A DNA stretch of 64,000 nt from Aquificales bacterium (GTDB lineage Bacteria; Aquificota; Aquificia; Aquificales; QOAS01), in the NCBI GenBank assembly GCA_027036735.1, contig JALWDU010000107.1:1037-65036 (forward strand). The letters are read 5' to 3'. Shown here one piece after another: positions 3,977 to 56,701 of this stretch (the stretch's first letter is position 1; each line of letters begins with the position of its first letter). Below the pieces are notes generated by a model. That model saw only the letters and a program-made list of their open reading frames with translations. It had not been told where the DNA came from and did not search any database. A program made the translations under genes and the position numbers.

Positions 3977-4909
3977 CTACCCCAACCGGTGAAAGTAAAG
4001 CTCCCCTATGGAGTCCAAGCTAAACTTTATAACCATCAGGCGGTCTAAGCCCAAAGAGACACCCGCGTATAGGGGCGGTAATTTTTTGTGGATTTCAACA
4101 AATTCCCTATCGAGGGGGAGGTTTAATTCCTCCGCCACCTTTTGGAGGCGTCTTTCGACCTCCGAGGGGTCGTTTATCTCGGTGTAACCGTTAGCCAGTT
4201 CTACGCCGAACATGTATAGCTCGAAGCGTTCGCACCAGCCGTTTTGACATCTCGCCAACGCGCCGAAGCGTTCGGGAAAGCCGTAAACGAAGGTGGGGCG
4301 CTCCCAACCGAGGTATTTTTCCAACTCCACATAGGTGTGGAAAAAGAGGGTCTCGGCGTCCTCGTCCGGTTCGAAGTGGATACCCCTCTCCTCCAATTGG
4401 CGCTTGAATGCCTCCCCATCCCTTAGGAGGAGTTCCAAATCCAATCCCAAATAGGTCTTGTAGGCTTCTTTTAGGGAGACCTTTAGGGGGTCGTTTTTTA
4501 TCTCCCTCCCCCTGTAGGTTATCCGCCCGCCAAAGAGCTCCTTTAGGAGGAGGGAGATTTCCTCCATCAAAAAGCGGTAATCGACCCCTATTTTGTAGTA
4601 TTCGAGCATGAGGAATTCAAAGTCGTGAAGCCGCCCCCCCTCGCGGTTTCTAAAGACGTGGCATATCTGAAAGATGTCCCTCCGGTAGCGGGCGAGGAGC
4701 TTTTTCATGGCGTATTCGGGAGAGGTGTGGAGGTAAAAAGCCCGCCTTCGGCGGGAAATATCCTCCACCTCGCAGGGTATGGGAAAGACATTCTCGTCCA
4801 AATTGGGGTAGGGGAGGAGGTGGGGGGTAACCACTTCGGTGTATCCCCTCTTTTTGAAAAATCCCCTAAGGGTGTCGAGGAATTTTTCGACCTCCAGAAG
4901 TTGGTTCAT
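3977..4909 (-). CDS. epmA: Elongation factor P--(R)-beta-lysine ligase (truncated class II LysRS paralog, PoxA/GenX)
   Basis: 310 aa. Class II aaRS catalytic core without an anticodon domain (HTSPEYAMK, FRNREGGRLHDFEFLMLEYY, GVSLGLDRL). Confidence 0.8.
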   Translation of the reverse strand: MNQLLEVEKFLDTLRGFFKKRGYTEVVTPHLLPYPNLDENVFPIPCEVEDISRRRRAFYLHTSPEYAMKKLLARYRRDIFQICHVFRNREGGRLHDFEFLMLEYYKIGVDYRFLMEEISLLLKELFGGRITYRGREIKNDPLKVSLKEAYKTYLGLDLELLLRDGEAFKRQLEERGIHFEPDEDAETLFFHTYVELEKYLGWERPTFVYGFPERFGALARCQNGWCERFELYMFGVELANGYTEINDPSEVERRLQKVAEELNLPLDREFVEIHKKLPPLYAGVSLGLDRLMVIKFSLDSIGELYFHRLG

Positions 4910-5195: not shown

Positions 5196-6623
5196 ATGCT
5201 AAAACGGACGTTAAAAGTGAGGCTATACCCAACGGGGAAACAAAAACAGATACTTAGAGAAATTCAAATTAGATGTGCTAAACTTTGGAACAGGGCTAAC
5301 TACCTAATCCGTCAAGAATACTTTAAAAACGGGAAAATTCTTTCTTACAATCAAGTCTATAATTTCGTTAAAAACTCTCCTGAATACAAAGCATTACCTA
5401 CCGATATTTCCCAAGCAATTTTAAAGAAGTTATCCGAAAGTTGGAAATCTTTTAAAGAACTTAAGAAACTCAAAGAAAAAGGTAAACTTCCAGAACATAT
5501 TAAAAAAGTTTCTCCACCTAAATATTTCAAAAACAGAAAACTTAATCAAACTTTGCCTATGTCTATTATCCCTATCCTTGCTCCGAGAAGTTATAGTTTA
5601 GGAGATTTCTCTTTTTCTTTTACTGTTCCTAAAGATTTCAAAGAAAATTATGGTATTAAGAAACGCTTGGAGATTTTAGCAACTTACCGAATTCCTTACA
5701 AAAATTATAAACTCAAAAAAGCAGAAATTCTAAACAAAAACGGAAAGTGGTATGTCCATATTTCGGTAGAAATACCTAAAAAGGAATTAAAAGAAACTAA
5801 AAAAGTTAACTACGCAAGTATAGATTTAGGAATAAGAAATCTAATAACTTTAGCAATTTACGACGAGGAAAGAAAATTAATAAGAATTTATCAATTTAAA
5901 TCCAAAGAACTACTCAAAGAATGGAAATATTGGAATAGAAAAATAGCTAAATATCAATCAAAATTAGCTAAAAGTGGATATAAGGGAAGTTCTTTGAAAC
6001 TTAGAAAATACTACGAAAATAGAAACAAACGAATAAAAGTAGCAATTCAACAGATAATTAACAAAAACAAAATAATCCAAATTTTGGATAGATATGGAGT
6101 TAAGGAAATATTTATCGGTGATTTAACAGGTATAAGAAACGGAAAGGATTACGGAAAGGAGTTAAACAAACTTTTGCATAATTTCTGGATAAGAAAACAA
6201 TTTTTAAATATTTTGAAATACAAGTTAGAAGAAGTGGGAATAGGTTTAACCCCTATTCCCGAAGCCTATACTTCTAAAACCTGTTTTAATTGCAGTTTAG
6301 AAGTTAAAAGACCAAAGCAACACTTCGTAATTTGCTCCAATTGTGGGAAACTCCATTCTGATACAAATGGAGCAATAAATATCTTAAAAAGAGGATTAAA
6401 ACTGAAAAATTTGGAATGGAAGAAAATAGGGGAAGTTCACTTAATTTGGAAGTTTAAACAGACAAACAGATGGGTATTTAGGTATTTGAGAATATACAAA
6501 AAGGACAAAGATAAACCCCTTGTGAGGGGACAGGCTAACAACCCGCCAGTGGGGGTAGCTACTCCAAAAAGAAGTAGCTACTCTCCAAAGTCAAGCCCCG
6601 CATTTCTAATGCGCGGTGGTTGA
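5196..6623 (+). CDS. tnpB: TnpB (IS605 OrfB-family RNA-guided endonuclease homolog), 475 aa
   Basis: N-terminus LKVRLYPTGKQKQIL. RuvC-I Asp in ASIDLGIRNL. Zinc ribbon CFNC...CSNCG. RuvC-III in HSDTNGAINILK. The last ~60 codons overlap the structured GC-rich right end (presumed omega-RNA). Confidence 0.85.
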   Translation: MLKRTLKVRLYPTGKQKQILREIQIRCAKLWNRANYLIRQEYFKNGKILSYNQVYNFVKNSPEYKALPTDISQAILKKLSESWKSFKELKKLKEKGKLPEHIKKVSPPKYFKNRKLNQTLPMSIIPILAPRSYSLGDFSFSFTVPKDFKENYGIKKRLEILATYRIPYKNYKLKKAEILNKNGKWYVHISVEIPKKELKETKKVNYASIDLGIRNLITLAIYDEERKLIRIYQFKSKELLKEWKYWNRKIAKYQSKLAKSGYKGSSLKLRKYYENRNKRIKVAIQQIINKNKIIQILDRYGVKEIFIGDLTGIRNGKDYGKELNKLLHNFWIRKQFLNILKYKLEEVGIGLTPIPEAYTSKTCFNCSLEVKRPKQHFVICSNCGKLHSDTNGAINILKRGLKLKNLEWKKIGEVHLIWKFKQTNRWVFRYLRIYKKDKDKPLVRGQANNPPVGVATPKRSSYSPKSSPAFLMRGG

Positions 6624-6973: not shown

Positions 6974-7882
6974 ATGGCAAAGGAGCTAAAGCGCGGTATA
7001 GTTGTGGAACGTGCGGGACAGAAGATTGGGGTATACCTGCCCGAGGAGAGGAAAACCTACCGCGGTATCCCCATGGGTAAAGTCCGCAAAAAGACCCGCA
7101 TATACGCGGGGGACTACGTCAGGGGTAGGGTGGTAGACCAAAACACCTTTGCGATAGAGGAGGTCGAAGAGCGGAAAAACCTCTTGGTGCGCCCTCCGGT
7201 TGCGAATGTCGACCGCGTCGTGATAGTGGAGACGATAGAGCACCCCCCGTTTCAACACTTTTTGCTCGACAACCTCTTGGTGGTCTACGATTATCTTGGT
7301 CTCGACACCGTCATAGTCTTCAACAAGATAGACCTACTTTCGGAGGAGGGTAAAAGGCAACTCCAAAAGTGGGAAAAAATTTACACCGACGCCGGTTACG
7401 ACGTTTTGAAGGTTTCCGCCAAAACGGGTGAGGGTATAGAGGCTTTAAAGGACTACCTGAAGGGTCAGGTCTGCATTTTGGCGGGTCCCTCGGGGGTTGG
7501 TAAGAGTTCCATACTCTCGGCTCTAACCGGCTTGCAGCTGCGCACCCAGGAGGTTAGCGAAAAGACCGAAAGGGGAAGGCACACCACAACCGGCGTCCAC
7601 CTGATACCCTTCGGTGAGGGCTCCTTTATAGGCGACACGCCCGGCTTTTCAAAGGTCGAGGCGCTCCAGTTTATGCCGAAGGAGGAGGTTAGACTCCACT
7701 TCCCCGAGTTTCTGCGCTACCGGTGTAAGTTTTCCAACTGCATGCACCTAAACGAGGAGGGTTGCGAGGTTAGGGAAGCCCTAAAGAGGGGTGAGATTTC
7801 CTGCGAACGCTACAAGAGTTATCTGAAGATGATTAAGGAATACGTCGATTGGCTCAAGGATTATTGCCGGGAGGAGGATTGA
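6974..7882 (+). CDS. rsgA: Ribosome small subunit-dependent GTPase A
   Basis: Circularly permuted GTPase motifs NKIDLL, GPSGVGKSS and DTPGF, plus a C-terminal zinc site CKFSNCMHLNEEGC. Confidence 0.9.
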   Translation: MAKELKRGIVVERAGQKIGVYLPEERKTYRGIPMGKVRKKTRIYAGDYVRGRVVDQNTFAIEEVEERKNLLVRPPVANVDRVVIVETIEHPPFQHFLLDNLLVVYDYLGLDTVIVFNKIDLLSEEGKRQLQKWEKIYTDAGYDVLKVSAKTGEGIEALKDYLKGQVCILAGPSGVGKSSILSALTGLQLRTQEVSEKTERGRHTTTGVHLIPFGEGSFIGDTPGFSKVEALQFMPKEEVRLHFPEFLRYRCKFSNCMHLNEEGCEVREALKRGEISCERYKSYLKMIKEYVDWLKDYCREED

Positions 7883-48662: not shown

Positions 48663-49973
48663 GAGTTTGTCGATTTCCCCTTTGGTGCGCTTTTCGGTAA
48701 CCGCCACCAAAAGGGTGTTTTTAAGCTCGGGATAGAACCTCTCGAGGGGAATACCGAACATAAACTCCTCCTTGAAGAGTTTTTTCCTCTTATCCCCCGC
48801 CTCGGGGTGGGAAATGGGGAATTCCCACAGGAAGCGGTCGTTTTTGAAGGGATTTTTCCACCCCTTTTGGAGTAAGTTTTTGTAGAGGTATCTGGCTTTG
48901 GAGATGGAGAGTTTCGCAACCTCCCTTAGACCCTCTTTGCCCAAGAGGGCTATGTAGAGCAGGGCGCGGAGGGCGATAAGGTTTTGGTTGGAGCATATAT
49001 TCGAGGTAGCGCGCTCGCGGCGGATATGCTGTTCCCTCGTCTGCAATACGAGGGTAAAGGCACGTCTGCCCTCTACATCCTCCGCCATGCCGACCAGCCT
49101 ACCGGGCATTTTGCGGACATATTTCTGTCGGGTGGCGAAAAATCCGAGATAGGGACCCCCGAAGTAGAGGGGTGTGCCGAGTTGCTGTCCCTCACCGACG
49201 ACTATATCGGCGCCAAACTCGGCGGGCGGTTTCAACACCGCAAGGGCTACCGGGTCGGCTACCACCACGAGGGGAACGCCGTATCTTTGGGCTAGCTCTC
49301 CAATCTCCTCAAGCGGTTCCACAAAACCGAAGAAGTTGGTATATTGCACCGCCAGGGCGTGGACTTCGTCATTTTTTAAAACTTCCTCAAGGCGGTTTAG
49401 GTCTGTTATTCCCCCTTCCGTGTAGGGGATTTCCTCGATTTTGTCCCTATACCCGTAGAGGTAGGTTTTTACCACTTCCCTATATAAGGGGTGAATGGTG
49501 CCTGTCAAAACGACCGTGTTCCCTTTACCCTTTATGGCGCGTGCCATTAAGACCGCCTCGGCTAGGGCGCTTGCGCCGTCATACATCGAGGCGTTTGCCA
49601 CATCCATACCGGTCAGTTCCGCAACAACGGTCTGATACTCGAAAATCGCCGTCAGCGTTCCCTGGGAAACCTCCGGCTGATAGGGGGTATAGGAGGTTAA
49701 AAATTCCCCCCTTCCCACTATGTGGTCTATGGCGGCGGGTATGTAGCGGTCGTATGCCCCCGCACCCGCAAATATCTTGAGCTGTCGGTTCTTATTTGCC
49801 AAACCTTTAAAGGTCTCCGATATTTCCAATTCCGACTTGGGTTCGGGAAGGTTTAGTTCTCCCTCGAAGAGGAGGGTTTTATCTATGTGCGAATAGAGGT
49901 CTTCAAAATTTTTAGCACCTACGGAGGAAAGCATTTCCCTCTCTTCGTCCGACGAGTGGGGGATGTATGCCAT
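48648..49973 (-). CDS. gcvPA: Glycine dehydrogenase (aminomethyl-transferring) subunit 1
   Basis: MAYIPHSSDEEREMLSSVG ... SYTPYQPEVSQGTL is typical of GcvPA. Start set at the internal Met (CAT 49971-49973). Confidence 0.85.
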   Translation of the reverse strand: MAYIPHSSDEEREMLSSVGAKNFEDLYSHIDKTLLFEGELNLPEPKSELEISETFKGLANKNRQLKIFAGAGAYDRYIPAAIDHIVGRGEFLTSYTPYQPEVSQGTLTAIFEYQTVVAELTGMDVANASMYDGASALAEAVLMARAIKGKGNTVVLTGTIHPLYREVVKTYLYGYRDKIEEIPYTEGGITDLNRLEEVLKNDEVHALAVQYTNFFGFVEPLEEIGELAQRYGVPLVVVADPVALAVLKPPAEFGADIVVGEGQQLGTPLYFGGPYLGFFATRQKYVRKMPGRLVGMAEDVEGRRAFTLVLQTREQHIRRERATSNICSNQNLIALRALLYIALLGKEGLREVAKLSISKARYLYKNLLQKGWKNPFKNDRFLWEFPISHPEAGDKRKKLFKEEFMFGIPLERFYPELKNTLLVAVTEKRTKGEIDKLLSLL

Positions 49974-50084
49974 AAGGCTACCTATTTTAGGTCTCTCTTT
50001 AGGGAAACAAGATGGGGTTTTGGAAATAATAGCCCTATCTTTTAGGGGTATTACTAACCTAAAATTGGTGGGAGGAGCGTTAAA

Positions 50085-50297
50085 GTGCAAAAGTTTTTTG
50101 AGGAATTTGGCAAACATATGCTAAATTTTGCGTTAGCCCTTATCGTTGCCTTGGTTTTTCAACCTGTAGTAAACGGACATTTCAACTTTAAATTTGCCCT
50201 TTGGGCTATCATCGGTTATGTAAGCCTGATAGCGGGGAGTTTAGCATTCTTTTGGTTAAGCGATAGATTAGAAAATAGAAAGGGCAGGGAGGATTAA
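50085..50297 (+). CDS. Small membrane protein (70 aa, two hydrophobic segments)
   Basis: GTG start with GGGAGGAG 7 nt upstream. AT-rich. Followed 3 nt later by the 36-aa peptide gene. Confidence 0.5.
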   Translation: MQKFFEEFGKHMLNFALALIVALVFQPVVNGHFNFKFALWAIIGYVSLIAGSLAFFWLSDRLENRKGRED

Positions 50298-50300
50298 GTT

Positions 50301-50411
50301 ATGGAAAAGGGTCTTATTTATGCGCTTGTCCTTATTTGGTCTGTAGCGGTGTTTCTATTTATATTGGGAGTTTTGGAATTAAAACGGAAAGCCAAAGAAA
50401 GGCATACCTAA
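50301..50411 (+). CDS. Small membrane peptide (36 aa), paralog of 3792..3902
   Basis: Not in the ORF track. ATG with AGGGAGG upstream. Translation: MEKGLIYALVLIWSVAVFLFILGVLELKRKAKERHT. Confidence 0.55.
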   Translation: MEKGLIYALVLIWSVAVFLFILGVLELKRKAKERHT

Positions 50412-50507
50412 TAACAAATCGTTACTGGTTGCGTACCGAAAAATAAAGGTTTTCTCTGCGCAAAGCCCTTTGTCGCGCGTGAGGTCTTTTTTATCCTTAA
50501 GAGCTAA

Positions 50508-51002
50508 ATGGGTAAATACCGTTACGAGATTACAAAGGTCTACCGTTTCGAGGCGGGGCACAGAGTTTGGAACCAAAATCTGGCGGAGGGTAGGGGTTCG
50601 CAACTGAGCGGAAACGCCTGCCCTCCCGAAAACAAGTGCCGCCACCTTCACGGACACAGCTACGTTGTCGAGATAACCATAGGTTCCGATACCTTGGACG
50701 CCGATATGGTGATGGATTTTTACCACCTCAAAAGTGCGGTAAAGGAGCTTATCGACTACAGACTCGACCACTCGTTTATAGTGGACAGAAACGACCCCCT
50801 ATTTCCCCAACTAAAGGCTATGGCGGATGAGTTCGGTTTAAAACTCTTTGTGGTCGATTTCGTTCCCACCGCGGAGCGGCTCGCCGAATTTATCTACAAA
50901 TATCTAAAGAGGAAATTCGAAGAGGCGGGCGTCAAAGAGGTTGATGTGGTTAAGGTAGCCGTCTGGGAAACCGCCACCTCCAAGGCTGAATATTCGGAAT
51001 AA
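50508..51002 (+). CDS. queD: 6-carboxy-5,6,7,8-tetrahydropterin synthase (PTPS family)
   Basis: FEAGHRV ... CRHLHGHSY zinc/catalytic motif pattern. 164 aa. Confidence 0.75.
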   Translation: MGKYRYEITKVYRFEAGHRVWNQNLAEGRGSQLSGNACPPENKCRHLHGHSYVVEITIGSDTLDADMVMDFYHLKSAVKELIDYRLDHSFIVDRNDPLFPQLKAMADEFGLKLFVVDFVPTAERLAEFIYKYLKRKFEEAGVKEVDVVKVAVWETATSKAEYSE

Positions 51003-51126
51003 CCTCCAAAGGGATATGAATAAAAAAGTCCGCCTCAAGGATGGGGAAATAGAAACCATTAAAGGGGTCATCCTCTCCTTCGACCCTGATGCGGAAATAA
51101 TTCTCTTCGGTAGCCGCACCGATTTG

Positions 51127-51295
51127 GGTGACATCCTCCCCTCATCGAAGATGAGGGGCTTCCCGCTTCATCGTGGAGAGTATCCCCACTCCACGGGCGT
51201 TACTTTCCCGCAGTCCACGGGTAGGGCAGACTTTAGGCGGTCTGCCAGCGCCTTATTCTTCTTCGCCAACTGCTTTAGTCCAATCTTTAATATGT
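51127..51295 (-). ncRNA. Putative omega-RNA scaffold of TnpB element 2; 5' limit uncertain
   Basis: GC-rich structured segment covering the last ~40 codons of tnpB-2 plus the right end. Hairpins GTGGAG..CTCCAC and CCCCTCATC/GATGAGGGG. Shares blocks with the element 1 right end. Confidence 0.45.
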
Positions 51296-52421
51296 TCCAA
51301 GCTCCATTTAAATCTCTGTCAATTTCTAAACCGCATTTCGAGCATCTATAAGTCCTCTCGTTTAATTCAACTTTTTGCTTAAAACCACATCTACAACAAG
51401 TTTTCGTTGTTGCTTCATATTTCGGCACAAATTCTACAGGGATAAGGGTCGCAAGGTATTTCAGCCTTGCAGTTATTCCCCCTATCCCCGTGTTTTGAAT
51501 TTCTTTCCCAAACAATCCTTTGTGCCAACCTTTTATGTCATCTCTTTGAACCGCTATAAACGGAAACTTCTTTAAGTAGCTTATTACCTTGTTTTGAATG
51601 TCTTTTCTTTTGTTCTTAATATATTCCCATTCCTTTTGTATTAACTTTTTAACCTTTTGATAGTTTTTGCTCCCTTTCCTCTTTCTTGCCAAAATCTTTT
51701 GCAACCTTTTAAGCCTCTTCGTTTCGGGAATATACCACTTAAACCTCTCTCCCGTTGTTAAGGTTAGCTGGTATTTAATACCTAAATCTATACCTACTGG
51801 AATTGAGGTCTGCTTTTGCTTAATTTCCCTTAAAACTTCCTCTTTCCAAAGATAGCAAACTACATATAGATAAAAGCCCGAAGGCTTTTTAACCAGAAAA
51901 GCGTTTGCAATCTCTGAATTTTTAGGTATCTGGTGCAATCCCAAAACTCTAAACCACTTTTTAATGCCTTGAACTTTAACTCTGTTTCTTTTAAAGTCTA
52001 TTTTGTAGGTGATTCCGAACTGCTTTAGGGGAATGCTTTTAAAATCGGATTTAAATTGTAGTTTTCCTACCTTATGGCCTTGTCCCTTTAGTTTTTTCAA
52101 AGTTTTAAGGCTATTTTTAATCCTTTCAATAATGTCTTGTTTGACTTGAGAGCCTAAGAGTTTTAGCTCTCTTTTCTCAAAACCATTAAGAGTTTTAATT
52201 TCTACCACTTTAAGTTTTTCGGATAGTTTGTTTAATCGGCTGTCAATATCCGCGATGAGGTAGTTATAGAACCATTTAGCCTCTAAGAAAAGTCTTTCTA
52301 AGGTTTTTATGTCGGATTTAGAAAGGTTTTGGAGTTTTAGCTGAAAGACTTTGGGAGTTTGGAGTTTTCTTTTTTCTTTAGTTAGTTTAAGAGATTGTTT
52401 GATTTTATCGGCTTTAGTCAT
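51168..52421 (-). CDS. tnpB: TnpB (IS605 OrfB-family RNA-guided endonuclease homolog), 417 aa
   Basis: RuvC-I VGIDLGIKYQ, zinc ribbon CCRCG...CSKCG and RuvC-III DRDLNGAWNILK. Confidence 0.85.
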   Translation of the reverse strand: MTKADKIKQSLKLTKEKRKLQTPKVFQLKLQNLSKSDIKTLERLFLEAKWFYNYLIADIDSRLNKLSEKLKVVEIKTLNGFEKRELKLLGSQVKQDIIERIKNSLKTLKKLKGQGHKVGKLQFKSDFKSIPLKQFGITYKIDFKRNRVKVQGIKKWFRVLGLHQIPKNSEIANAFLVKKPSGFYLYVVCYLWKEEVLREIKQKQTSIPVGIDLGIKYQLTLTTGERFKWYIPETKRLKRLQKILARKRKGSKNYQKVKKLIQKEWEYIKNKRKDIQNKVISYLKKFPFIAVQRDDIKGWHKGLFGKEIQNTGIGGITARLKYLATLIPVEFVPKYEATTKTCCRCGFKQKVELNERTYRCSKCGLEIDRDLNGAWNILKIGLKQLAKKNKALADRLKSALPVDCGKVTPVEWGYSPR

Positions 52422-52694
52422 CGCTCCAAACGCCCTTAGATAGGGATTTTAAAACCTATCGGACGCCATTCATCCCTCCATCACAGAGGAGGAGCTTTCT
52501 AACGTGGAGTTTTGTAAAAAGGGAGGTGACATAGACCTCCTCGTGGTTTCTAAAAAAATAGGTTACCGCGAGAGGAGAAGGATAAGGGTCGAACTCCTAA
52601 AGCGGTTGGGCGACAGAAAAATAGACCTTTTGGTGGTTGGAGACCCCAAAGAAACCGTTTTTAGAAAATTAGCCTACAAATACGGGGTGAGGCT

Positions 52695-53171
52695 ATGACC
52701 TTTGAGGAGCGTCTTAGCCTCTTTTGCGAAAATTTGCGTTTATACCTCAAGAGTGTGGAGTGGTTAAAGGTTTCCATCGAAAGGTGCAAAAGTTTAGACC
52801 CCAAAGCGGAATGGAGTTTGGAAGACTACGAGAGGATAGAAACCTTGTTTTCCCGTTTTAGTAGGGCTGTTGATATTCTCCTTAATAAGGTTTTACGTTC
52901 GCTCGATATCCTCGAATTGGAGGAACCCCTGAGAAAACTGGATGTCGTTAATCGAGCCGAAAAGAGGGGTATAGTGGAGGATTACAACATCCTAATAGAG
53001 CTTAAGGATTTAAGGAACGAACTCGCCCGCGAATATATAGAGGAGGCTTTAAAGAACCGTTTGGAAGAGGTTATGGAAAAGAGTCTCCTCCTCTTGGAGA
53101 TAACCAAAAATTTAAAGGAATACGCCCAAAGGATGGAGTATTTGGAGGGTTGTCCCGAAATGGGGAATTGA
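52695..53171 (+). CDS. HEPN-like partner of the MNT gene (toxin-type component) with non-canonical RNxxxR motif
   Basis: ATGA start/stop overlap with the MNT C-fragment. All-helical 158-aa protein. LRNELAREY (53013-53036) sits where HEPN/DUF86 proteins carry RNxxxHxY. Confidence 0.55.
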   Translation: MTFEERLSLFCENLRLYLKSVEWLKVSIERCKSLDPKAEWSLEDYERIETLFSRFSRAVDILLNKVLRSLDILELEEPLRKLDVVNRAEKRGIVEDYNILIELKDLRNELAREYIEEALKNRLEEVMEKSLLLLEITKNLKEYAQRMEYLEGCPEMGN

Positions 53172-53184
53172 AATTTTCACCTTT

Positions 53185-53856
53185 ATGGGAAACGGTTTTA
53201 AAAACCTCCTCGTAGAGGTTTACAAAAAACTATTGGAGCATTTTGGAAAGCAAAACTGGTGGCCGGTGGATTGGGAATACCACCTAAGGGAGAGGACAAA
53301 CCCCTTCGACGAGGTCGTTATAGGTGCGATTCTTACACAAAACACCTCTTGGAGGAATGTGGAAAAAGCCCTCGAAAGGTTAAAGGCGAAGGGAAAACTA
53401 TCCTTGGTCTGGATTGAAAAGACTCCCTTGGAAGTTTTGGAAGAATTGGTTAAACCTGCCGGGTTCTACAGACAAAAGGCGCAACGTCTAAAGGAGATTG
53501 CCAAATTTATCCGTTCTGCCAAAGGGGGAGTGCCGCGGAGGGAAGACCTTTTAAAGGTTAAAGGGATAGGAAATGAAACCGCCGATGTGATACTCCTATA
53601 CGGATACCACCGACCGGAGTTTGTTATCGATAGGTACACCTTGAGGTGGCTAAAGAGGTTTCTCGGGGTGGAATGGGATTATTTAACCGCAAAGGGATTT
53701 TTTGAGGAAAACCTCCCGCCGAATGTGCCGGTTTACAAGGAGTTTCACGCCCTAATAGACGAATTGGCAAAAAATTACTGCAAGGCAAAAAAGGTGGAAT
53801 GCAAAAGATGCCCGCTAGCGCGGGAATGTGGGTTTAGAAGGGAAGGAGTTGGGTGA
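53185..53856 (+). CDS. Endonuclease III-related HhH-GPD family protein
   Basis: HhH motif LKVKGIGNETADVILLY and a C-terminal Cys cluster CKAKKVECKRCPLARECG. Confidence 0.75.
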   Translation: MGNGFKNLLVEVYKKLLEHFGKQNWWPVDWEYHLRERTNPFDEVVIGAILTQNTSWRNVEKALERLKAKGKLSLVWIEKTPLEVLEELVKPAGFYRQKAQRLKEIAKFIRSAKGGVPRREDLLKVKGIGNETADVILLYGYHRPEFVIDRYTLRWLKRFLGVEWDYLTAKGFFEENLPPNVPVYKEFHALIDELAKNYCKAKKVECKRCPLARECGFRREGVG

Positions 53857-55264
53857 AGGCGAGGGAGGCGTTTACAATGGGGGTTACCCATATTCCGAAT
53901 ACCACGCTCAGAAGGGCGAGCAAACCTATTGCCACGGTGGGTATTAGGAAAGAGGTATCCTTCGGTCTTTCAACCCCCTTGGGCTCCTCGAGATACATCT
54001 CCTTAATAATCCATAAGTAGTAGGCTACGGCGAAGGCGGAGTTTAGCAGTCCAACGAATGCCAACCACGCCATATTGGCGTCAACCGCCGCCTGGAAGAG
54101 GTAAACCTTTGCAATAAATCCGGCTGTGGGGGGAACTCCCGCCAGCGATAGAAGTAAAACGGTGAAAACAAATGCCATAAAGGGATTGACCTTTCCGAAA
54201 CCCCTCAGCTCCTCACGGGTTTTTATACCGTAGTAGTAAATCAGTAAGGTAACTATAAGGAACGCCCCCGCCTTCATAAGGATATAGGCAACCGCTTGGT
54301 AAACGATACCGGTCACGGCGAGTCCGGAGGCGGCGGCGGCAAAACCCACCAGTATATAGCCGGCGTGCGCTATGGAGGAATAAGCGAGTATCCTCGCAAC
54401 GCTCTGCTGGGCGAGGGCGAGGAGGTTACCTATCGTCATGGTTAAAACGGCAAGTACCGCGAAGAGGATAGCCCAATCTTCTTTCTGGAAGCTCAGCGCC
54501 TCGAAAAAGAGTCTGATAACGGGTATGGCAACGGCACTCTTGGTTATCCCCGCCAGGTATGCAGCAACGGATGCGGGGGCTCCGGTGTAAACGTCAGGTG
54601 CGTAGAAGTGGTAGGGGGCAAAGGACATTTTGAAACCTATAGCCGAGAGAATCGCAATAAAACCGAAGGCGAAGAAGAGCATACCGAAGGTATCGGTGGC
54701 GTGGAAAATCTTGTTAATCGCGGCAAACTGAAGGTCTCCGGTTATCGCGTAGACCACAAGTATACCGAACAGGAAAAATCCGGTCGCCAACGCGCCGTTG
54801 AAGAAATACTTGGTGGCGGCTTCGACCGTAATGGCGTTTAGCCTAGCCATTATCAGGTAGTAGGAGGGAATCGTCATAAGCTCCATGGCGACCAGCAGGG
54901 AGACGAAGTTATTCGCGTAAAGGGTCATTATTGCACCGGCGAGGGATATGGCGTAAACGCCCAAAATCTCGGGAAGGTTTTCAACCTCTTTAAGGGTGTT
55001 GTAAATGGTTACGAGAACCACCGCACCGGTAAACCATACGAAAACGGTCAGCAGTAAACTTGCGGCATCGGTGGTGAATAGATTGGGGTAGAGGGGATGT
55101 CCGTGGGTAAACCCGTAAATAAAGAGGACACCCGCTATTAGAAATACGACCATAAAGAGGTTTAAAAGCCACTCCCTGGACAACCTAAAGAGGTTTGCAA
55201 TTATGGGGACCAAAAGCCCCCCGAAGGCGAGGGTCAGTATTCCGCTAAATACCACGCAGTTCAT
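53834..55264 (-). CDS. nuoN: NADH-quinone oxidoreductase subunit N
   Basis: 476-aa antiporter-like polytopic protein, last gene of the nuo operon. Confidence 0.8.
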   Translation of the reverse strand: MNCVVFSGILTLAFGGLLVPIIANLFRLSREWLLNLFMVVFLIAGVLFIYGFTHGHPLYPNLFTTDAASLLLTVFVWFTGAVVLVTIYNTLKEVENLPEILGVYAISLAGAIMTLYANNFVSLLVAMELMTIPSYYLIMARLNAITVEAATKYFFNGALATGFFLFGILVVYAITGDLQFAAINKIFHATDTFGMLFFAFGFIAILSAIGFKMSFAPYHFYAPDVYTGAPASVAAYLAGITKSAVAIPVIRLFFEALSFQKEDWAILFAVLAVLTMTIGNLLALAQQSVARILAYSSIAHAGYILVGFAAAASGLAVTGIVYQAVAYILMKAGAFLIVTLLIYYYGIKTREELRGFGKVNPFMAFVFTVLLLSLAGVPPTAGFIAKVYLFQAAVDANMAWLAFVGLLNSAFAVAYYLWIIKEMYLEEPKGVERPKDTSFLIPTVAIGLLALLSVVFGIWVTPIVNASLAFTQLLPF

Positions 55265-55267
55265 CGC

Positions 55268-56701
55268 TTAACCTCCCAATATCTTTCCGAGGGTTTGGGC
55301 GTAACCGTTTACGAAGCTGAAGAGAATCGAAGGGACTATACCGAGGAGAACAAACAACGCCACATAAGCCATAAGGGGTATTCTTTCCACGAGGGGTAAG
55401 GGATGGGGGTGTAATTTTGCAACCAAGCCGGAAATTTCCCCGTGAAGCATCCTTCTGATAGCCCAGAAGAAGAAACCGGCGGTAAGCACAGCGGAGAAAG
55501 GTAAAGCCAACGCTATCCAACCGAATTTGTCGAAGGCGGCGTAAATGGCGGTAACCTCACCTATGAAGCCGGCGGTTCCGGGAAAACCTAGAGCCCCTAA
55601 AGCGCCGAGCATATAGAGAACGCCTATGAATGGGAACCTGCGGAGAAATCCGCCACCGATTTCGGAGATATACCAGGTGCCGGTAATGTGATGGATATAT
55701 CCGGCAATCATAAACATTAGGGAAATTATCAAGGCGTGGGCTACCATTTCGTAAATCGCGGCGCTGATACCCGCGGCGGTTAGCGTGGCTATGGCAACCA
55801 ATACCAATCCCATGTGGTTTATGGAGGAGTATGCGACCATCCTCTTAACGTGGTCCTCGTAAAGGGCTTTAAACGCCGCGTGGAAAACGGTCAGCAAACC
55901 TATACCCAACATTAGGTAGATGAAGTGTTTGGACGCCTGGGGGAAAAGCTCGATATTCCACCTCAAGAGTCCGTAAGCCCCCATTTTTAGGAGTAGACCC
56001 GCCAGGATTACCGAAATGGGGGAGGGAGCTTGAACGTGGGCGTCGGGAAGCCAGGTGTGGAAGGGAACGACGGGCATTTTAACGATAAAGCCGATAAACG
56101 CCAACGCCCAAATAACCTTTTGCAAGTCGATGGGAATATTAGCCTGCTTTATCGCGACGAAATCGAAGTGTCCGGTCTTGATGTAGATGATAAGCATTGC
56201 GAGGAAGATAAATATCGACGCCAGGTGGGTGTAGAGGAAAAACTTTACGGCGGCGTAAATCCTGTTCTCAGCCCCCCAAATACCTATATGGAAGAACATG
56301 GGAACGAGGGTAAATTCCCAAAAGATGAAGAACCAAAGGTAGTTAAGGGAGGCGAAAACGCCCACCATGGCGCCTAGGAATACCAAAATTAGGAAGAAGT
56401 AGGCACCCGGACGCTCAACATTCCAAGAGGACAGGGTTACAAGTATCGCAATTATTCCGGTAAGCGTTATCAAGGCTATCGCCAAAGCGTCCACACCCAA
56501 GTGGAGGTTGAAATCCCACTGCGGCAGAATCGGAATGTTTTGTTCGAAGGCAAATCCGTGCCCGGGATAGTTTAACCACATTACCGCCCCTATAAGGGTG
56601 ACGAAAATACCCGCCGCCAAAGAGAAGTACTTCGCCTGCCTATCGAAAAAGTAGGCAAAGGGGGCGAGAATTACCGGTAAAAGTATGGCACTCAGCAGCA
56701 T
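55268..56701 (-). CDS. nuoM: NADH-quinone oxidoreductase subunit M
   Basis: 477-aa antiporter-like subunit (WLPDAHVQAPSP block), placed between nuoL and nuoN. Confidence 0.8.
   Translation of the reverse strand: MLLSAILLPVILAPFAYFFDRQAKYFSLAAGIFVTLIGAVMWLNYPGHGFAFEQNIPILPQWDFNLHLGVDALAIALITLTGIIAILVTLSSWNVERPGAYFFLILVFLGAMVGVFASLNYLWFFIFWEFTLVPMFFHIGIWGAENRIYAAVKFFLYTHLASIFIFLAMLIIYIKTGHFDFVAIKQANIPIDLQKVIWALAFIGFIVKMPVVPFHTWLPDAHVQAPSPISVILAGLLLKMGAYGLLRWNIELFPQASKHFIYLMLGIGLLTVFHAAFKALYEDHVKRMVAYSSINHMGLVLVAIATLTAAGISAAIYEMVAHALIISLMFMIAGYIHHITGTWYISEIGGGFLRRFPFIGVLYMLGALGALGFPGTAGFIGEVTAIYAAFDKFGWIALALPFSAVLTAGFFFWAIRRMLHGEISGLVAKLHPHPLPLVERIPLMAYVALFVLLGIVPSILFSFVNGYAQTLGKILGG

What the first reader, a model, noticed from the sequence alone, without database searches (positions are those of the whole stretch)
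51016..53171. MNT antitoxin gene destroyed by a TnpB element while its HEPN partner carries His-to-Arg at the catalytic motif
The 5' piece (51016-51126: ...AEIILFGSRTDL) and the 3' piece (~52507-52698: EFCKKGGDIDLLVVS...) reconstitute a ~100-aa minimal nucleotidyltransferase with the GS-x10-DxD motif once the 1.38-kb insert is removed. The downstream gene overlaps the MNT stop in the usual ATGA toxin-antitoxin fashion. It is an all-helical 158-aa protein with LRNELAREY at the position where HEPN/DUF86 (HepT-type) toxins have RNxxxHxY. The Arg codon CGC (53028-53030) is one transition away from His CAC. In characterised MntA/HepT pairs the nucleotidyltransferase neutralises the HEPN RNase, so losing the antitoxin should only be tolerated if the toxin is inactive. 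This locus may record that order of events, or the reverse: toxin decay first, then neutral IS insertion.
Basis: partly seen in the sequence, partly recalled or inferred. Interest (0 to 1): 0.65.

Follow-up and report, generated by a model that had tools for sequence, protein, structure and literature searches.

The report
IS-split antitoxin gene, mutated HEPN toxin
A small toxin-antitoxin gene pair in a hot-vent bacterium (order Aquificales) has had its antitoxin gene cut in two by a TnpB mobile element, and related strains indicate that the toxin then picked up changes at its most conserved residues; this is a tidy natural example of a known kind of gene decay, not a new system.

Summary

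- **Insertion.** A 1,386-bp TnpB-only IS200/IS605-type element (window 51128-52513, tnpB on the minus strand) sits inside a 98-aa minimal nucleotidyltransferase (MNT) gene. It lies immediately 3' of a TTTAC target, and no target duplication is present.
- **Downstream gene.** The 158-aa gene (52695-53171) overlaps the MNT stop by ATGA. It belongs to an uncharacterised MNT-linked HEPN family with the motif DLRNELxHEY.
- **The His-to-Arg change.** In 110 family sequences that cover the motif, His is present 106 times, Tyr 3 times, and Arg once. The one Arg is this window.
- **Orthologous loci.** Syntenic loci with an empty site (L005, L092, L173) have an intact MNT and His.
- **Order of events.** A sister haplotype (L004, 98.9% identical) carries the same insertion but still has His112 and Ile86. 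The insertion therefore most likely came first, and a split MNT can coexist with the wild-type motif.
- **Parallel case.** A second lineage with the insertion (L088) carries N108K and R68C instead. All five replacements private to insertion-bearing lineages hit positions at least 93% conserved in the family. Only 1 of 12 does so on empty-site lineages.

Best reading: antitoxin knockout, then selected toxin inactivation.

Caveats: the role of His is untested in this family. In the closest structural match (Legionella HEPN), the equivalent His-to-Ala mutant stays toxic. All sequences are metagenome assemblies.

The parts
51016..51127 (+). 5' fragment of the MNT (MntA-like minimal nucleotidyltransferase) gene: codons 1-37 plus one base. 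It carries the Gly-Ser of the GS..DxD motif. It now runs on into element-derived sequence as a 111-aa chimeric ORF (51016-51351).
   Evidence: Colinear with the intact 98-aa genes L005:2208-2504 and L092:955-1251.
51128..52513 (-). 1,386-bp TnpB-only IS200/IS605-family element with no tnpA and no target duplication. Its left end abuts TTTAC, and its right end finishes ...GGAGGATGTCAC.
   Evidence: The empty-site alleles define the insert. Related copies at other sites share the TTTAC|left-end and ...GGAGGWGGTCAC|flank boundaries.
51168..52421 (-). tnpB, 417 aa.
   Evidence: Pfam OrfB_IS605 (45.4 bits) and Cas12f1-like_TNB (57 bits). NCBIfam guided_TnpB 149.6 bits against a cut-off of 100. Matches ISDra2 TnpB in the PDB at E=1e-18.
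51128..51229 (-). Right-end structured region, the likely 3' part of the omega-RNA scaffold. It overlaps the end of tnpB.
   Evidence: Conserved in relatives whose TnpB is 61-81% identical. 26 predicted pairs, of which 4 show compensatory changes across 4 sequences. A sub-threshold Rfam RAGATH-18 hit lies at 51160-51197.
51108..51127 (-). Flank immediately 3' of the right end (CCAAATCGGTGCGGCTACCG on the minus strand). This is the position from which a TnpB guide would be transcribed. Together with TTTAC it matches the intact MNT allele.
   Evidence: Sequence. The guide role is inferred from how characterised TnpB elements work (from my own knowledge) and was not tested here.
52514..52518 (-). 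TTTAC target (TAM-like) next to the left end (GTAAA on the + strand).
   Evidence: TTTAC sits at the left-end junction in the window, L094, L095 and L096; L097 and L098 show at least TTAC.
52514..52698 (+). 3' fragment of the MNT gene (the rest of codon 38 through codon 98, plus the stop). It contains the DxD. ORF callers extend it upstream to GTG 52504 inside the element, giving a 64-aa ORF.
   Evidence: Two window-specific replacements (Ser to Arg, Ile to Leu) at 52653-52669.
52695..53171 (+). HEPN (HepT-like) partner gene, 158 aa. The motif reads LRNELAREY. Arg112 is codon 53028-53030 (ancestral CAC, His). Asn86 is codon 52950-52952 (ancestral ATT, Ile).

Best explanation
This is a chromosomal two-gene MNT-HEPN module of the HepT/MntA (type VII toxin-antitoxin) kind. 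It sits between queD and an nth-like gene in an uncultured Aquificales bacterium.

Proposed sequence of events:
1. A non-autonomous TnpB element inserted 3' of a TTTAC inside codon 38 of the MNT gene. This separated the Gly-Ser from the DxD of the nucleotidyltransferase active site, so the antitoxin can no longer be made. This step is shown.
2. The insertion is old enough to be shared by at least three haplotypes of one clade (window, L004, L093). It also occupies the same site in a second clade (L088). Empty-site alleles with an intact MNT coexist in the population. This step is shown.
3. The HEPN gene was left without its neutraliser but was tolerated, as in L004. Why it was tolerated is unknown. 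One guess is that a 1.4-kb antisense insert cuts the gene off from its upstream transcription. This step is inferred.
4. The HEPN gene then acquired loss-of-function replacements independently in two lineages: I86N plus H112R in the window lineage, and R68C plus N108K in the L088 clade. Two of these four hit the Arg-Asn-x3-His motif, which is needed for toxicity in Shewanella HepT. Their concentration on conserved residues is more than neutral decay predicts, so residual toxicity probably selected for them. This step is inferred.
5. If the TnpB is active, its guide would match the restored MNT allele (TTTAC plus CCAAATCGG...). That would work against reversion by precise excision. This step is inferred.
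For: **Split MNT and exact empty site:**

**Element identity and ends:**

**HEPN membership**
- The best PDB fold matches are HEPN toxins of HEPN-MNT pairs: 8xeh, 8yuf, 8xdj, 7ae6/7ae8, 6m6w/7bxo, 5yep, 1jog, 1ylm. TM-scores normalised to the target are 0.54-0.81 at probability 0.99-1.00.
- Weak Pfam hits to NTase_sub_bind and HepT-like occur in most family members.
- HI0074 aligns over the motif.

**His is ancestral:**

**Same insertion with His:** L004 is colinear with window 49922-55421 with 60 mismatches and no gaps. Its TnpB protein is identical to the window's, and its HEPN has Ile86 and His112.

**Age of the insertion:** in L093 the element is 97.7% identical to the window's and the flank is 97.4% identical.

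**Second lineage:** L088 carries the element at the same junction, with HEPN R68C and N108K.

**Where the replacements fall**
- All 5 replacements private to insertion-bearing lineages fall on positions at least 93% conserved in 102 outside family members.
- Only 1 of 12 does so on empty-site lineages.
- About 20% of positions (32 of 158) are that conserved.

**Mutagenesis in a relative:** R97G and H102A abolish the toxicity of Shewanella HepT, and N98 is also critical (PMC4621449). MntA neutralises HepT by adding AMP to the Tyr of RX4HXY (PMC7641770).
Against: - **The effect of H112R is untested.** In L. pneumophila HEPN, the best structural match, R98A and H103A remain toxic, and the active site is a Mg2+ site elsewhere (PMC11586414).
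- **All haplotypes are metagenome assemblies.** The linkage between the insertion junction and codon 112 (about 515 bp apart) in L004 could be a strain chimera. The Arg allele is seen in one contig only.
- **Vertical inheritance is not the whole story.** The window and L004 elements differ at 2 of 1,386 bases, while the flanks differ by about 1-3.6%. The element-bearing tract may have been exchanged recently, which would leave the order of events in the window lineage itself open.
- **The statistics are weak.** The counts are small, and the enrichment test was devised after seeing the data. Pairwise dN/dS for window against L004 is low (0.16, from 3 synonymous and 2 non-synonymous differences) and has no power.
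- **His loss does not require antitoxin loss.** A His-to-Tyr variant exists next to an intact MNT in Persephonella (L089).
Confidence: 0.62

Rival explanations
1. Neutral decay of a silenced gene. The insertion switched HEPN expression off through a polar effect, the gene became a pseudogene-in-waiting, and H112R, I86N, R68C and N108K are unselected drift.
For: L004 keeps a wild-type HEPN with a split MNT, which suggests no strong toxicity. No sigma-70-like promoter was found anywhere in 50300-53300. There are no frameshifts or stops yet, and pairwise dN/dS is not elevated.
Against: Under neutrality, about 20% of replacements should hit conserved positions. On insertion-bearing lineages 5 of 5 do, including two in the three-residue RN..H core in two independent lineages. 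The promoter scan covers only an E. coli-type consensus.
Confidence: 0.22
2. Toxin change first (or independent of the insertion). H112R arose on an intact module, and the element-bearing tract arrived later by recombination or guide-directed homing from an L004-like donor.
For: The tract 50954-52652 (the element plus 174 and 139 bp of flank) has 2 mismatches in 1,699 bp between window and L004, against 58 in the remaining 3,801 bp. The same site is occupied in non-sister clades. A His-to-Tyr variant exists with an intact MNT in Persephonella.
Against: No Arg112 allele with an intact MNT was found among 5 empty-site haplotypes or in the wider family. L093 shows that the element has been resident in this clade for as long as its flanks have diverged.
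Confidence: 0.1
3. H112R is functionally harmless. In this subfamily the RNxxxHxY loop serves as the AMP acceptor and ATP-contact surface for MNT rather than as the RNase site (as proposed for Legionella HEPN). Once MNT is lost, the loop is simply freed from constraint while the protein keeps its activity.
For: The best Foldseek matches are the Legionella HEPN structures. In that protein R98A and H103A had negligible effect on RNase activity and toxicity (PMC11586414). The short 98-aa MNT may resemble the Legionella type (that paper describes its MNT as lacking the long C-terminal helix); this similarity was not tested here.
Against: There is no detectable sequence similarity to the Legionella protein. 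An active toxin with no neutraliser would need another explanation for cell survival. The accompanying hits R68C and I86N lie outside the loop.
Confidence: 0.06

Closest known systems
HepT/MntA type VII toxin-antitoxin of Shewanella oneidensis (SO_3166/SO_3165; PDB 5yep, 6m6w, 7bxo)
   Same: Gene order is MNT first, then HEPN. The HEPN is a small all-helical protein with RNxxxHxY, and the MNT has a GS..DxD motif. The folds match. The residues changed here (His, and in L088 the Asn after Arg) are the ones whose mutation abolished toxicity there (PMC4621449).
   Different: No significant sequence similarity. Pfam HepT-like and NCBIfam MntA models score below their cut-offs. The MNT is 98 aa with GS-x9-DxD. 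AMP transfer and RNase activity are untested.
Legionella pneumophila HEPN-MNT (PDB 8xeh, 8xdj, 8yuf)
   Same: Best structural match to the model (TM-score to target 0.77-0.81). It is an MNT-HEPN pair with an RX4HXY loop.
   Different: No sequence-level match. In that protein the motif Arg and His are dispensable for toxicity, and a Mg2+ site (Q44/E47) is catalytic (PMC11586414). Whether that applies here is unknown.
HI0073/HI0074 of Haemophilus influenzae (PDB 1jog; Pfam NTase_sub_bind)
   Same: The only solved structure found by sequence profile (E=0.038), aligned across DxRNxxxHxY. It is the most frequent weak Pfam hit in the family (34 of 38 members).
   Different: Scores lie below the Pfam gathering threshold (best member E=2.3e-5; the window protein scores 13.6 bits against a cut-off of 31.8).
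TnpB-only IS200/IS605-family elements (for example the ISDra2 TnpB/omega-RNA system)
   Same: TnpB domains are present. Insertion is 3' of a short conserved target with no duplication. A structured RNA region lies at the right end and is followed by flank.
   Different: No tnpA. The target is TTTAC. The residue that aligns with the RuvC-II catalytic Glu is Gln in this element and in all 78 relatives examined. Nuclease activity is therefore not assured.

Membership tests
HEPN superfamily, MNT-associated HepT-like toxins | All-alpha helical-bundle fold of HEPN toxins | tested here: met
   The AlphaFold2 model has mean pLDDT 90.5 and five helices. The top Foldseek PDB hits are HEPN toxins of HEPN-MNT pairs at probability 0.99-1.00.
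HEPN superfamily, MNT-associated HepT-like toxins | Rx4-6H motif, here RNxxxHxY | tested here: not met
   The family has it (R 109/110, N 108/110, H 106/110, Y 108/110). The window protein reads RNELAREY, so His is replaced. It is a member by descent that carries a broken motif.
HEPN superfamily, MNT-associated HepT-like toxins | Curated profile match (Pfam HepT-like PF01934 or NTase_sub_bind PF08780) above the gathering score | tested here: not met
   The window protein scores 13.6 bits on NTase_sub_bind against a cut-off of 31.8, and has no HepT-like hit. Family members give only weak hits (best E=2e-5 and 6e-5).
HEPN superfamily, MNT-associated HepT-like toxins | Adjacent, overlapping MNT gene upstream | tested here: met
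   An MNT of about 93-110 aa (three longer ORFs) with GSR..KKGGDID lies directly upstream in 52 of 55 His-bearing genome loci; the other three have no MNT in the fetched sequence, and at least two of them (L016, L024) start within about 20 bases of a contig end. In the window the partner is present but split.
HEPN superfamily, MNT-associated HepT-like toxins | RNase activity, toxicity, and neutralisation by AMP addition to the motif Tyr | not testable with these tools
   Tyr114 is retained. No biochemical data exist for this family.
Minimal nucleotidyltransferase (MNT / MntA-like antitoxin) | NTP_transf_2 / Pol-beta-type domain | tested here: met
   The joined fragments score 28.1 bits on PF01909 against a cut-off of 21. 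The intact orthologues carry PF01909.
Minimal nucleotidyltransferase (MNT / MntA-like antitoxin) | Contiguous GS-x(9-13)-DxD active-site motif | tested here: not met
   In the window, Gly-Ser (5' piece) and DID (3' piece) are separated by 1,386 bp. Orthologues have GSRTDLGKKGGDID, which is x9.
Minimal nucleotidyltransferase (MNT / MntA-like antitoxin) | NCBIfam MntA_antitoxin equivalog score | tested here: not met
   21.7 bits against a cut-off of 60. It is related to, but not a member of, the curated MntA family.
IS200/IS605 family, TnpB-only element | TnpB with OrfB_IS605 and zinc-ribbon (TNB) domains | tested here: met
IS200/IS605 family, TnpB-only element | Insertion 3' of a conserved short target without target-site duplication | tested here: met
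   The empty sites show a seamless joint. TTTAC lies at the left-end junction of copies at independent sites.
IS200/IS605 family, TnpB-only element | Structured omega-RNA at the right end | tested here: inconclusive
   A conserved 102-nt structure has 4 compensatory pairs, but only 4 sequences were compared. The Rfam hit is below threshold.
IS200/IS605 family, TnpB-only element | Intact RuvC Asp-Glu-Asp triad | tested here: inconclusive
   Asp212 and Asp370 are present. Gln292 aligns with the catalytic Glu, but it does so in all 78 relatives examined. In the nine closest relatives whose sequence was printed, an Asp follows two residues later.
IS200/IS605 family, TnpB-only element | Y1 transposase TnpA | tested here: not met
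   The only long ORF in the 1,386 bp is tnpB. The element is non-autonomous.

The most novel reading that the evidence does not exclude
The locus is a natural record of a TnpB element acting as a self-maintaining knockout of an antitoxin gene.

- The element's guide matches the intact MNT allele.
- The same site is occupied in non-sister haplotypes.
- Between the window and L004, the element-bearing tract is about ten times less diverged than its surroundings.

This pattern is what guide-directed homing or recombinational spread through a wild population would leave. Each time the antitoxin is lost, the orphaned HEPN toxin is then inactivated by positively selected hits on its RN..H motif. That in turn would be in-vivo evidence that this motif is what makes this uncharacterised HEPN family toxic.
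Probability: 0.2. Interest if true: 0.65.

Novelty: new member of a known kind. Interest (0 to 1): 0.4.

Why it matters
MNT-HEPN pairs are described as probably the most abundant toxin-antitoxin modules in prokaryotes (PMC7641770), yet few have been tested. The two tested systems most relevant here also disagree on whether the RX4H motif is the toxic site.

This population offers ready-made natural alleles of one uncharacterised family:
- wild type with an intact MNT;
- wild type with a split MNT;
- H112R plus I86N;
- N108K plus R68C.

These alleles can be synthesised and compared directly. They give a field example of the order 'antitoxin lost, then toxin disabled'. They also provide a defined TTTAC-targeting TnpB element with known empty and filled sites in the same metagenome.

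Tried and rejected
- **TnpB as a decayed, nuclease-dead copy.** HMMER aligns Gln292 with the catalytic Glu of ISDra2 TnpB. Rejected as a sign of local decay, because all 78 relatives down to 37% identity have Gln there and the family is visibly mobile.
- **A naturally Arg-bearing HEPN subfamily.** Rejected by alignment.
- **A second MNT or HEPN copy in the window that could cross-neutralise.** tblastn found none. The rest of the genome is not visible.
- **An outward-reading or upstream promoter for the HEPN gene.** The consensus scan found nothing on either strand. This is uninformative for Aquificales.
- **Sequence link to the Legionella HEPN structures.** A family profile and a Legionella-MAG family member both failed to hit them.
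- **The window's own HEPN protein in the gene-position index.** It is not on record.
- **Pairwise dN/dS as a test of relaxed or positive selection.** Too few differences to be informative.
- **Fold of the left end as single-stranded DNA and of the right end as RNA, from the single sequence.** Neither was better than shuffled sequence. Only the comparative analysis was informative.
- **Contigs L085-L087 (the N108K/R68C allele).** They end inside the MNT 3' piece before the junction, so their insertion state is unknown.
Full report
**1. What is in the sequence**

Between queD (50508-51002; Pfam PTPS) and an nth-like gene (53185-53856; HhH-GPD), the + strand carries three things:
- an ORF that starts MNKKVRLKDGEIETIKGVILSFDPDAEIILFGSRTDL (from 51016);
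- 1.4 kb later...KKGGDIDLLVVSKKIGYRERRRIRVELLKRLGDRKIDLLVVGDPKETVFRKLAYKYGVRL*;
- a 158-aa ORF (52695-53171) whose ATG overlaps that stop as ATGA.

Between the two pieces, on the minus strand, lies a 417-aa ORF (51168-52421). It has the Pfam domains OrfB_IS605 and Cas12f1-like_TNB. It scores 149.6 bits on NCBIfam guided_TnpB (cut-off 100) and matches ISDra2 TnpB in the PDB.

**2. Exact anatomy of the insertion**

A genome-collection scan found a syntenic locus in another Aquificales MAG: L005 (JALVTI010000074.1), with the order gcvPA-queD-MNT-HEPN-nth-nuoN. It has no TnpB, an intact 98-aa MNT (...LFGSRTDLGKKGGDIDLLVVS...), and a HEPN that is 94% identical to the window's.
- Four empty-site alleles (L005, L092, L091, L172) read cgcaccgatttgg|gtaaaaagg.
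- The insert is therefore 1,386 bp, window 51128-52513, give or take a shared 'gt'. There is no target duplication.
- Related elements at other sites were found in JGI metagenomes (TnpB 61-83% identical). They have the same boundaries: TTTAC|left end, and right end ...GGAGGWGGTCAC|flank.
- The last 102 nt of the right end form a conserved structure with four compensatory pairs among four sequences. A sub-threshold RAGATH-18 hit lies there too. This fits an omega-RNA scaffold.
- The flank that would supply the guide (CCAAATCGGTGCGGCT...) together with TTTAC is exactly the intact MNT allele.
- There is no tnpA.

**3. What the 158-aa protein is**

- Pfam gives only a weak NTase_sub_bind hit for the window protein (E=0.067). 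NCBIfam gives nothing.
- The protein has 103 homologues, mostly from Aquificota, Desulfurobacteriaceae and Persephonella. Relatives occur in many other phyla.
- Of 38 aligned members, 34 hit NTase_sub_bind weakly and 27 hit HepT-like weakly.
- A family profile finds HI0074 (1jog) in the PDB, aligned across DxRNxxxHxY.
- An AlphaFold2 model (pLDDT 90.5, five helices) has as its best PDB matches the HEPN toxins of HEPN-MNT pairs: Legionella 8xeh/8yuf/8xdj, Aphanizomenon 7ae6/7ae8, Shewanella 6m6w/7bxo/5yep, HI0074 and YutE.
- In 52 of 55 His-bearing genome loci where my motif search worked, an MNT with GSR..KKGGDID lies immediately upstream. The other three have no MNT in the fetched sequence, and at least two of them (L016, L024) begin within about 20 bases of a contig end.

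This is an uncharacterised, stereotyped MNT-HEPN family of the HepT/MntA kind.

**4. Is His ancestral?**

Yes. Across 110 family sequences that cover the motif:

| Position | Residue counts |
|---|---|
| 107 | R 109, K 1 |
| 108 | N 108, K 2 |
| 112 | H 106, Y 3, R 1 |
| 114 | Y 108, F 2 |

The single Arg at position 112 is this window. All ten orthologous haplotypes at this locus have CAC where the window has CGC.

**5. Population picture at this locus**

| Haplotype(s) | Insertion state | HEPN state |
|---|---|---|
| L005, L092, L173, L172 | Empty site (L172's contig starts inside the MNT) | R107, N108 and H112 intact |
| L091 | Empty site, but with an A8 run where the others have A7 | R107, N108 and H112 intact |
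| Window | Element present | I86N + H112R |
| L004 (ENA ERZ23491132) | Same element; colinear over 5,500 bp with 60 mismatches and no gap; TnpB protein identical | Ile86 and His112, no private change |
| L093 (JGI Ga0256831) | Right-end junction plus MNT 5' piece and queD; element 97.7% and flank 97.4% identical to the window | Not on the contig |
| L088 (GCA_026996015.1) | Same junction; contig ends inside the element; element part 7.7% diverged | R68C + N108K (+L24I) |
| L085-L087 | Unknown: contigs break inside the MNT 3' piece | R68C + N108K |

The JGI metagenome that yielded L093 also holds an empty-site allele (L173). The site is therefore polymorphic within a single sample.

**6. Order of events**

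- The element is shared by the window, L004 and L093. In L093 it has diverged about as much as its flanks. His112 is retained in L004 and in every outgroup.
- Parsimony therefore puts the insertion before H112R. It also shows that a split MNT can coexist with the wild-type motif.
- Caveat: between the window and L004, the tract 50954-52652 has 2 mismatches in 1,699 bp, against 58 in the other 3,801 bp.
- In gene trees, the two insertion-bearing clades are not sisters.
- Recombination or homing of the element-bearing tract has therefore probably occurred, and the order within the window lineage itself is not proven.

**7. Selection or drift?**

- Replacements private to insertion-bearing lineages are I86N and H112R (window), R68C and N108K (L085-L088), and L24I (L088).
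- All five fall on positions at least 93% conserved in 102 family members outside this population.
- Of the 12 replacements private to empty-site haplotypes, only L106F does.
- About 20% of positions (32 of 158) are that conserved. Five of five is therefore unlikely under simple relaxation (0.2^5 = 3e-4).
- This test was devised after seeing the data, and the numbers are small.
- Two of the hits are the His and the Asn of RNxxxH. In Shewanella HepT, H102A and R97G abolished toxicity and N98 was also critical (PMC4621449).
- I therefore favour selected inactivation of an orphaned, mildly harmful toxin over neutral decay.

**8. Why this is not certain**

- In L. pneumophila HEPN, my best structural match, R98A and H103A stay toxic and the active site is a Mg2+ site (PMC11586414). 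I found no sequence link to that protein, so either precedent could apply.
- A His-to-Tyr variant sits next to an intact MNT in Persephonella, so motif loss does not need antitoxin loss.
- Every sequence is a metagenome assembly, and the Arg allele is seen only once.

**9. Verdict**

The new information is:
- the exact empty site;
- the TTTAC target;
- the direction of change (His to Arg, derived);
- a sister haplotype that has the insertion but keeps His;
- an independent parallel case (N108K/R68C).

The system is an ordinary kind, an IS-disrupted toxin-antitoxin module, in an uncharacterised family. The population-level detail makes it a usable natural experiment.

Noticed in passing
window 5196-6623 (+): A second, unrelated TnpB-like ORF (475 aa; HTH_OrfB_IS605, OrfB_IS605 and TNB domains) lies between an ORF at 3977-4909 on the minus strand (by eye a lysyl-tRNA-synthetase/EpmA-like protein) and one at 6974-7882 (by eye an RsgA-like GTPase); neither neighbour was searched against any family library. 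No tnpA is nearby. Its only DNA similarity to the MNT-inserted element is a 39-nt stretch at 74%.
   Followed up: partly
window 51546-51548 (TnpB codon 292, minus strand): The residue that aligns with the RuvC-II catalytic Glu of ISDra2 TnpB is Gln, in this element and in all 78 relatives down to 37% identity. In the nine closest relatives whose sequence was printed, an Asp follows two residues later. This could be a shifted catalytic residue or a nuclease-impaired clade. The clade is still mobile.
   Followed up: partly
window 50954-52652 compared with L004: The element plus 174 and 139 bp of flank differs at only 2 of 1,699 bases between the window and L004. The surrounding 3.8 kb differs at 58 bases. 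Window-specific clusters of changes lie just outside the tract, at 50939-50953 and 52653-52669. This looks like a recent recombination or conversion tract.
   Followed up: partly
L093 and L173 (JGI metagenome 3300028030, Ga0256831): Filled (L093) and empty (L173) alleles of the same MNT site occur in one metagenome, so the insertion is polymorphic within a single sample.
   Followed up: partly
L091:45-60 (ENA ERZ23486359): This empty-site allele has a run of eight A where all the others have seven, inside the MNT 3' half. It is either a frameshifted antitoxin next to a wild-type HEPN or a homopolymer assembly error.
   Followed up: no
L065:1738-2944 (Legionella sp. MAG JAACPN010000077.1): A three-gene arrangement: a second, different HEPN-like gene (159 aa, LRSLRNTLAHEY; weak HepT-like and NTase_sub_bind hits), then the MNT (94 aa), then the HEPN of this family (149 aa).
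   Followed up: partly
L089:2702-3456 (Persephonella sp., GCA_027023985.1): A family member with Tyr in place of the motif His (RNELVYEY) sits next to an apparently intact 100-aa MNT. A second MNT-like gene lies 2 kb downstream. Two other homologues with Tyr (P0088, P0091) are on contigs of 980 and 565 bases, probably too short to show the neighbouring genes, and were not looked up.
   Followed up: partly
window 52486-52506 (+): The left-end hairpin of the element supplies a GAGGAGGAG stretch about 10 nt upstream of GTG 52504. Gene callers therefore predict a 64-aa ORF that fuses three element codons to the MNT C-terminal half. Whether it is translated is unknown.
   Followed up: no
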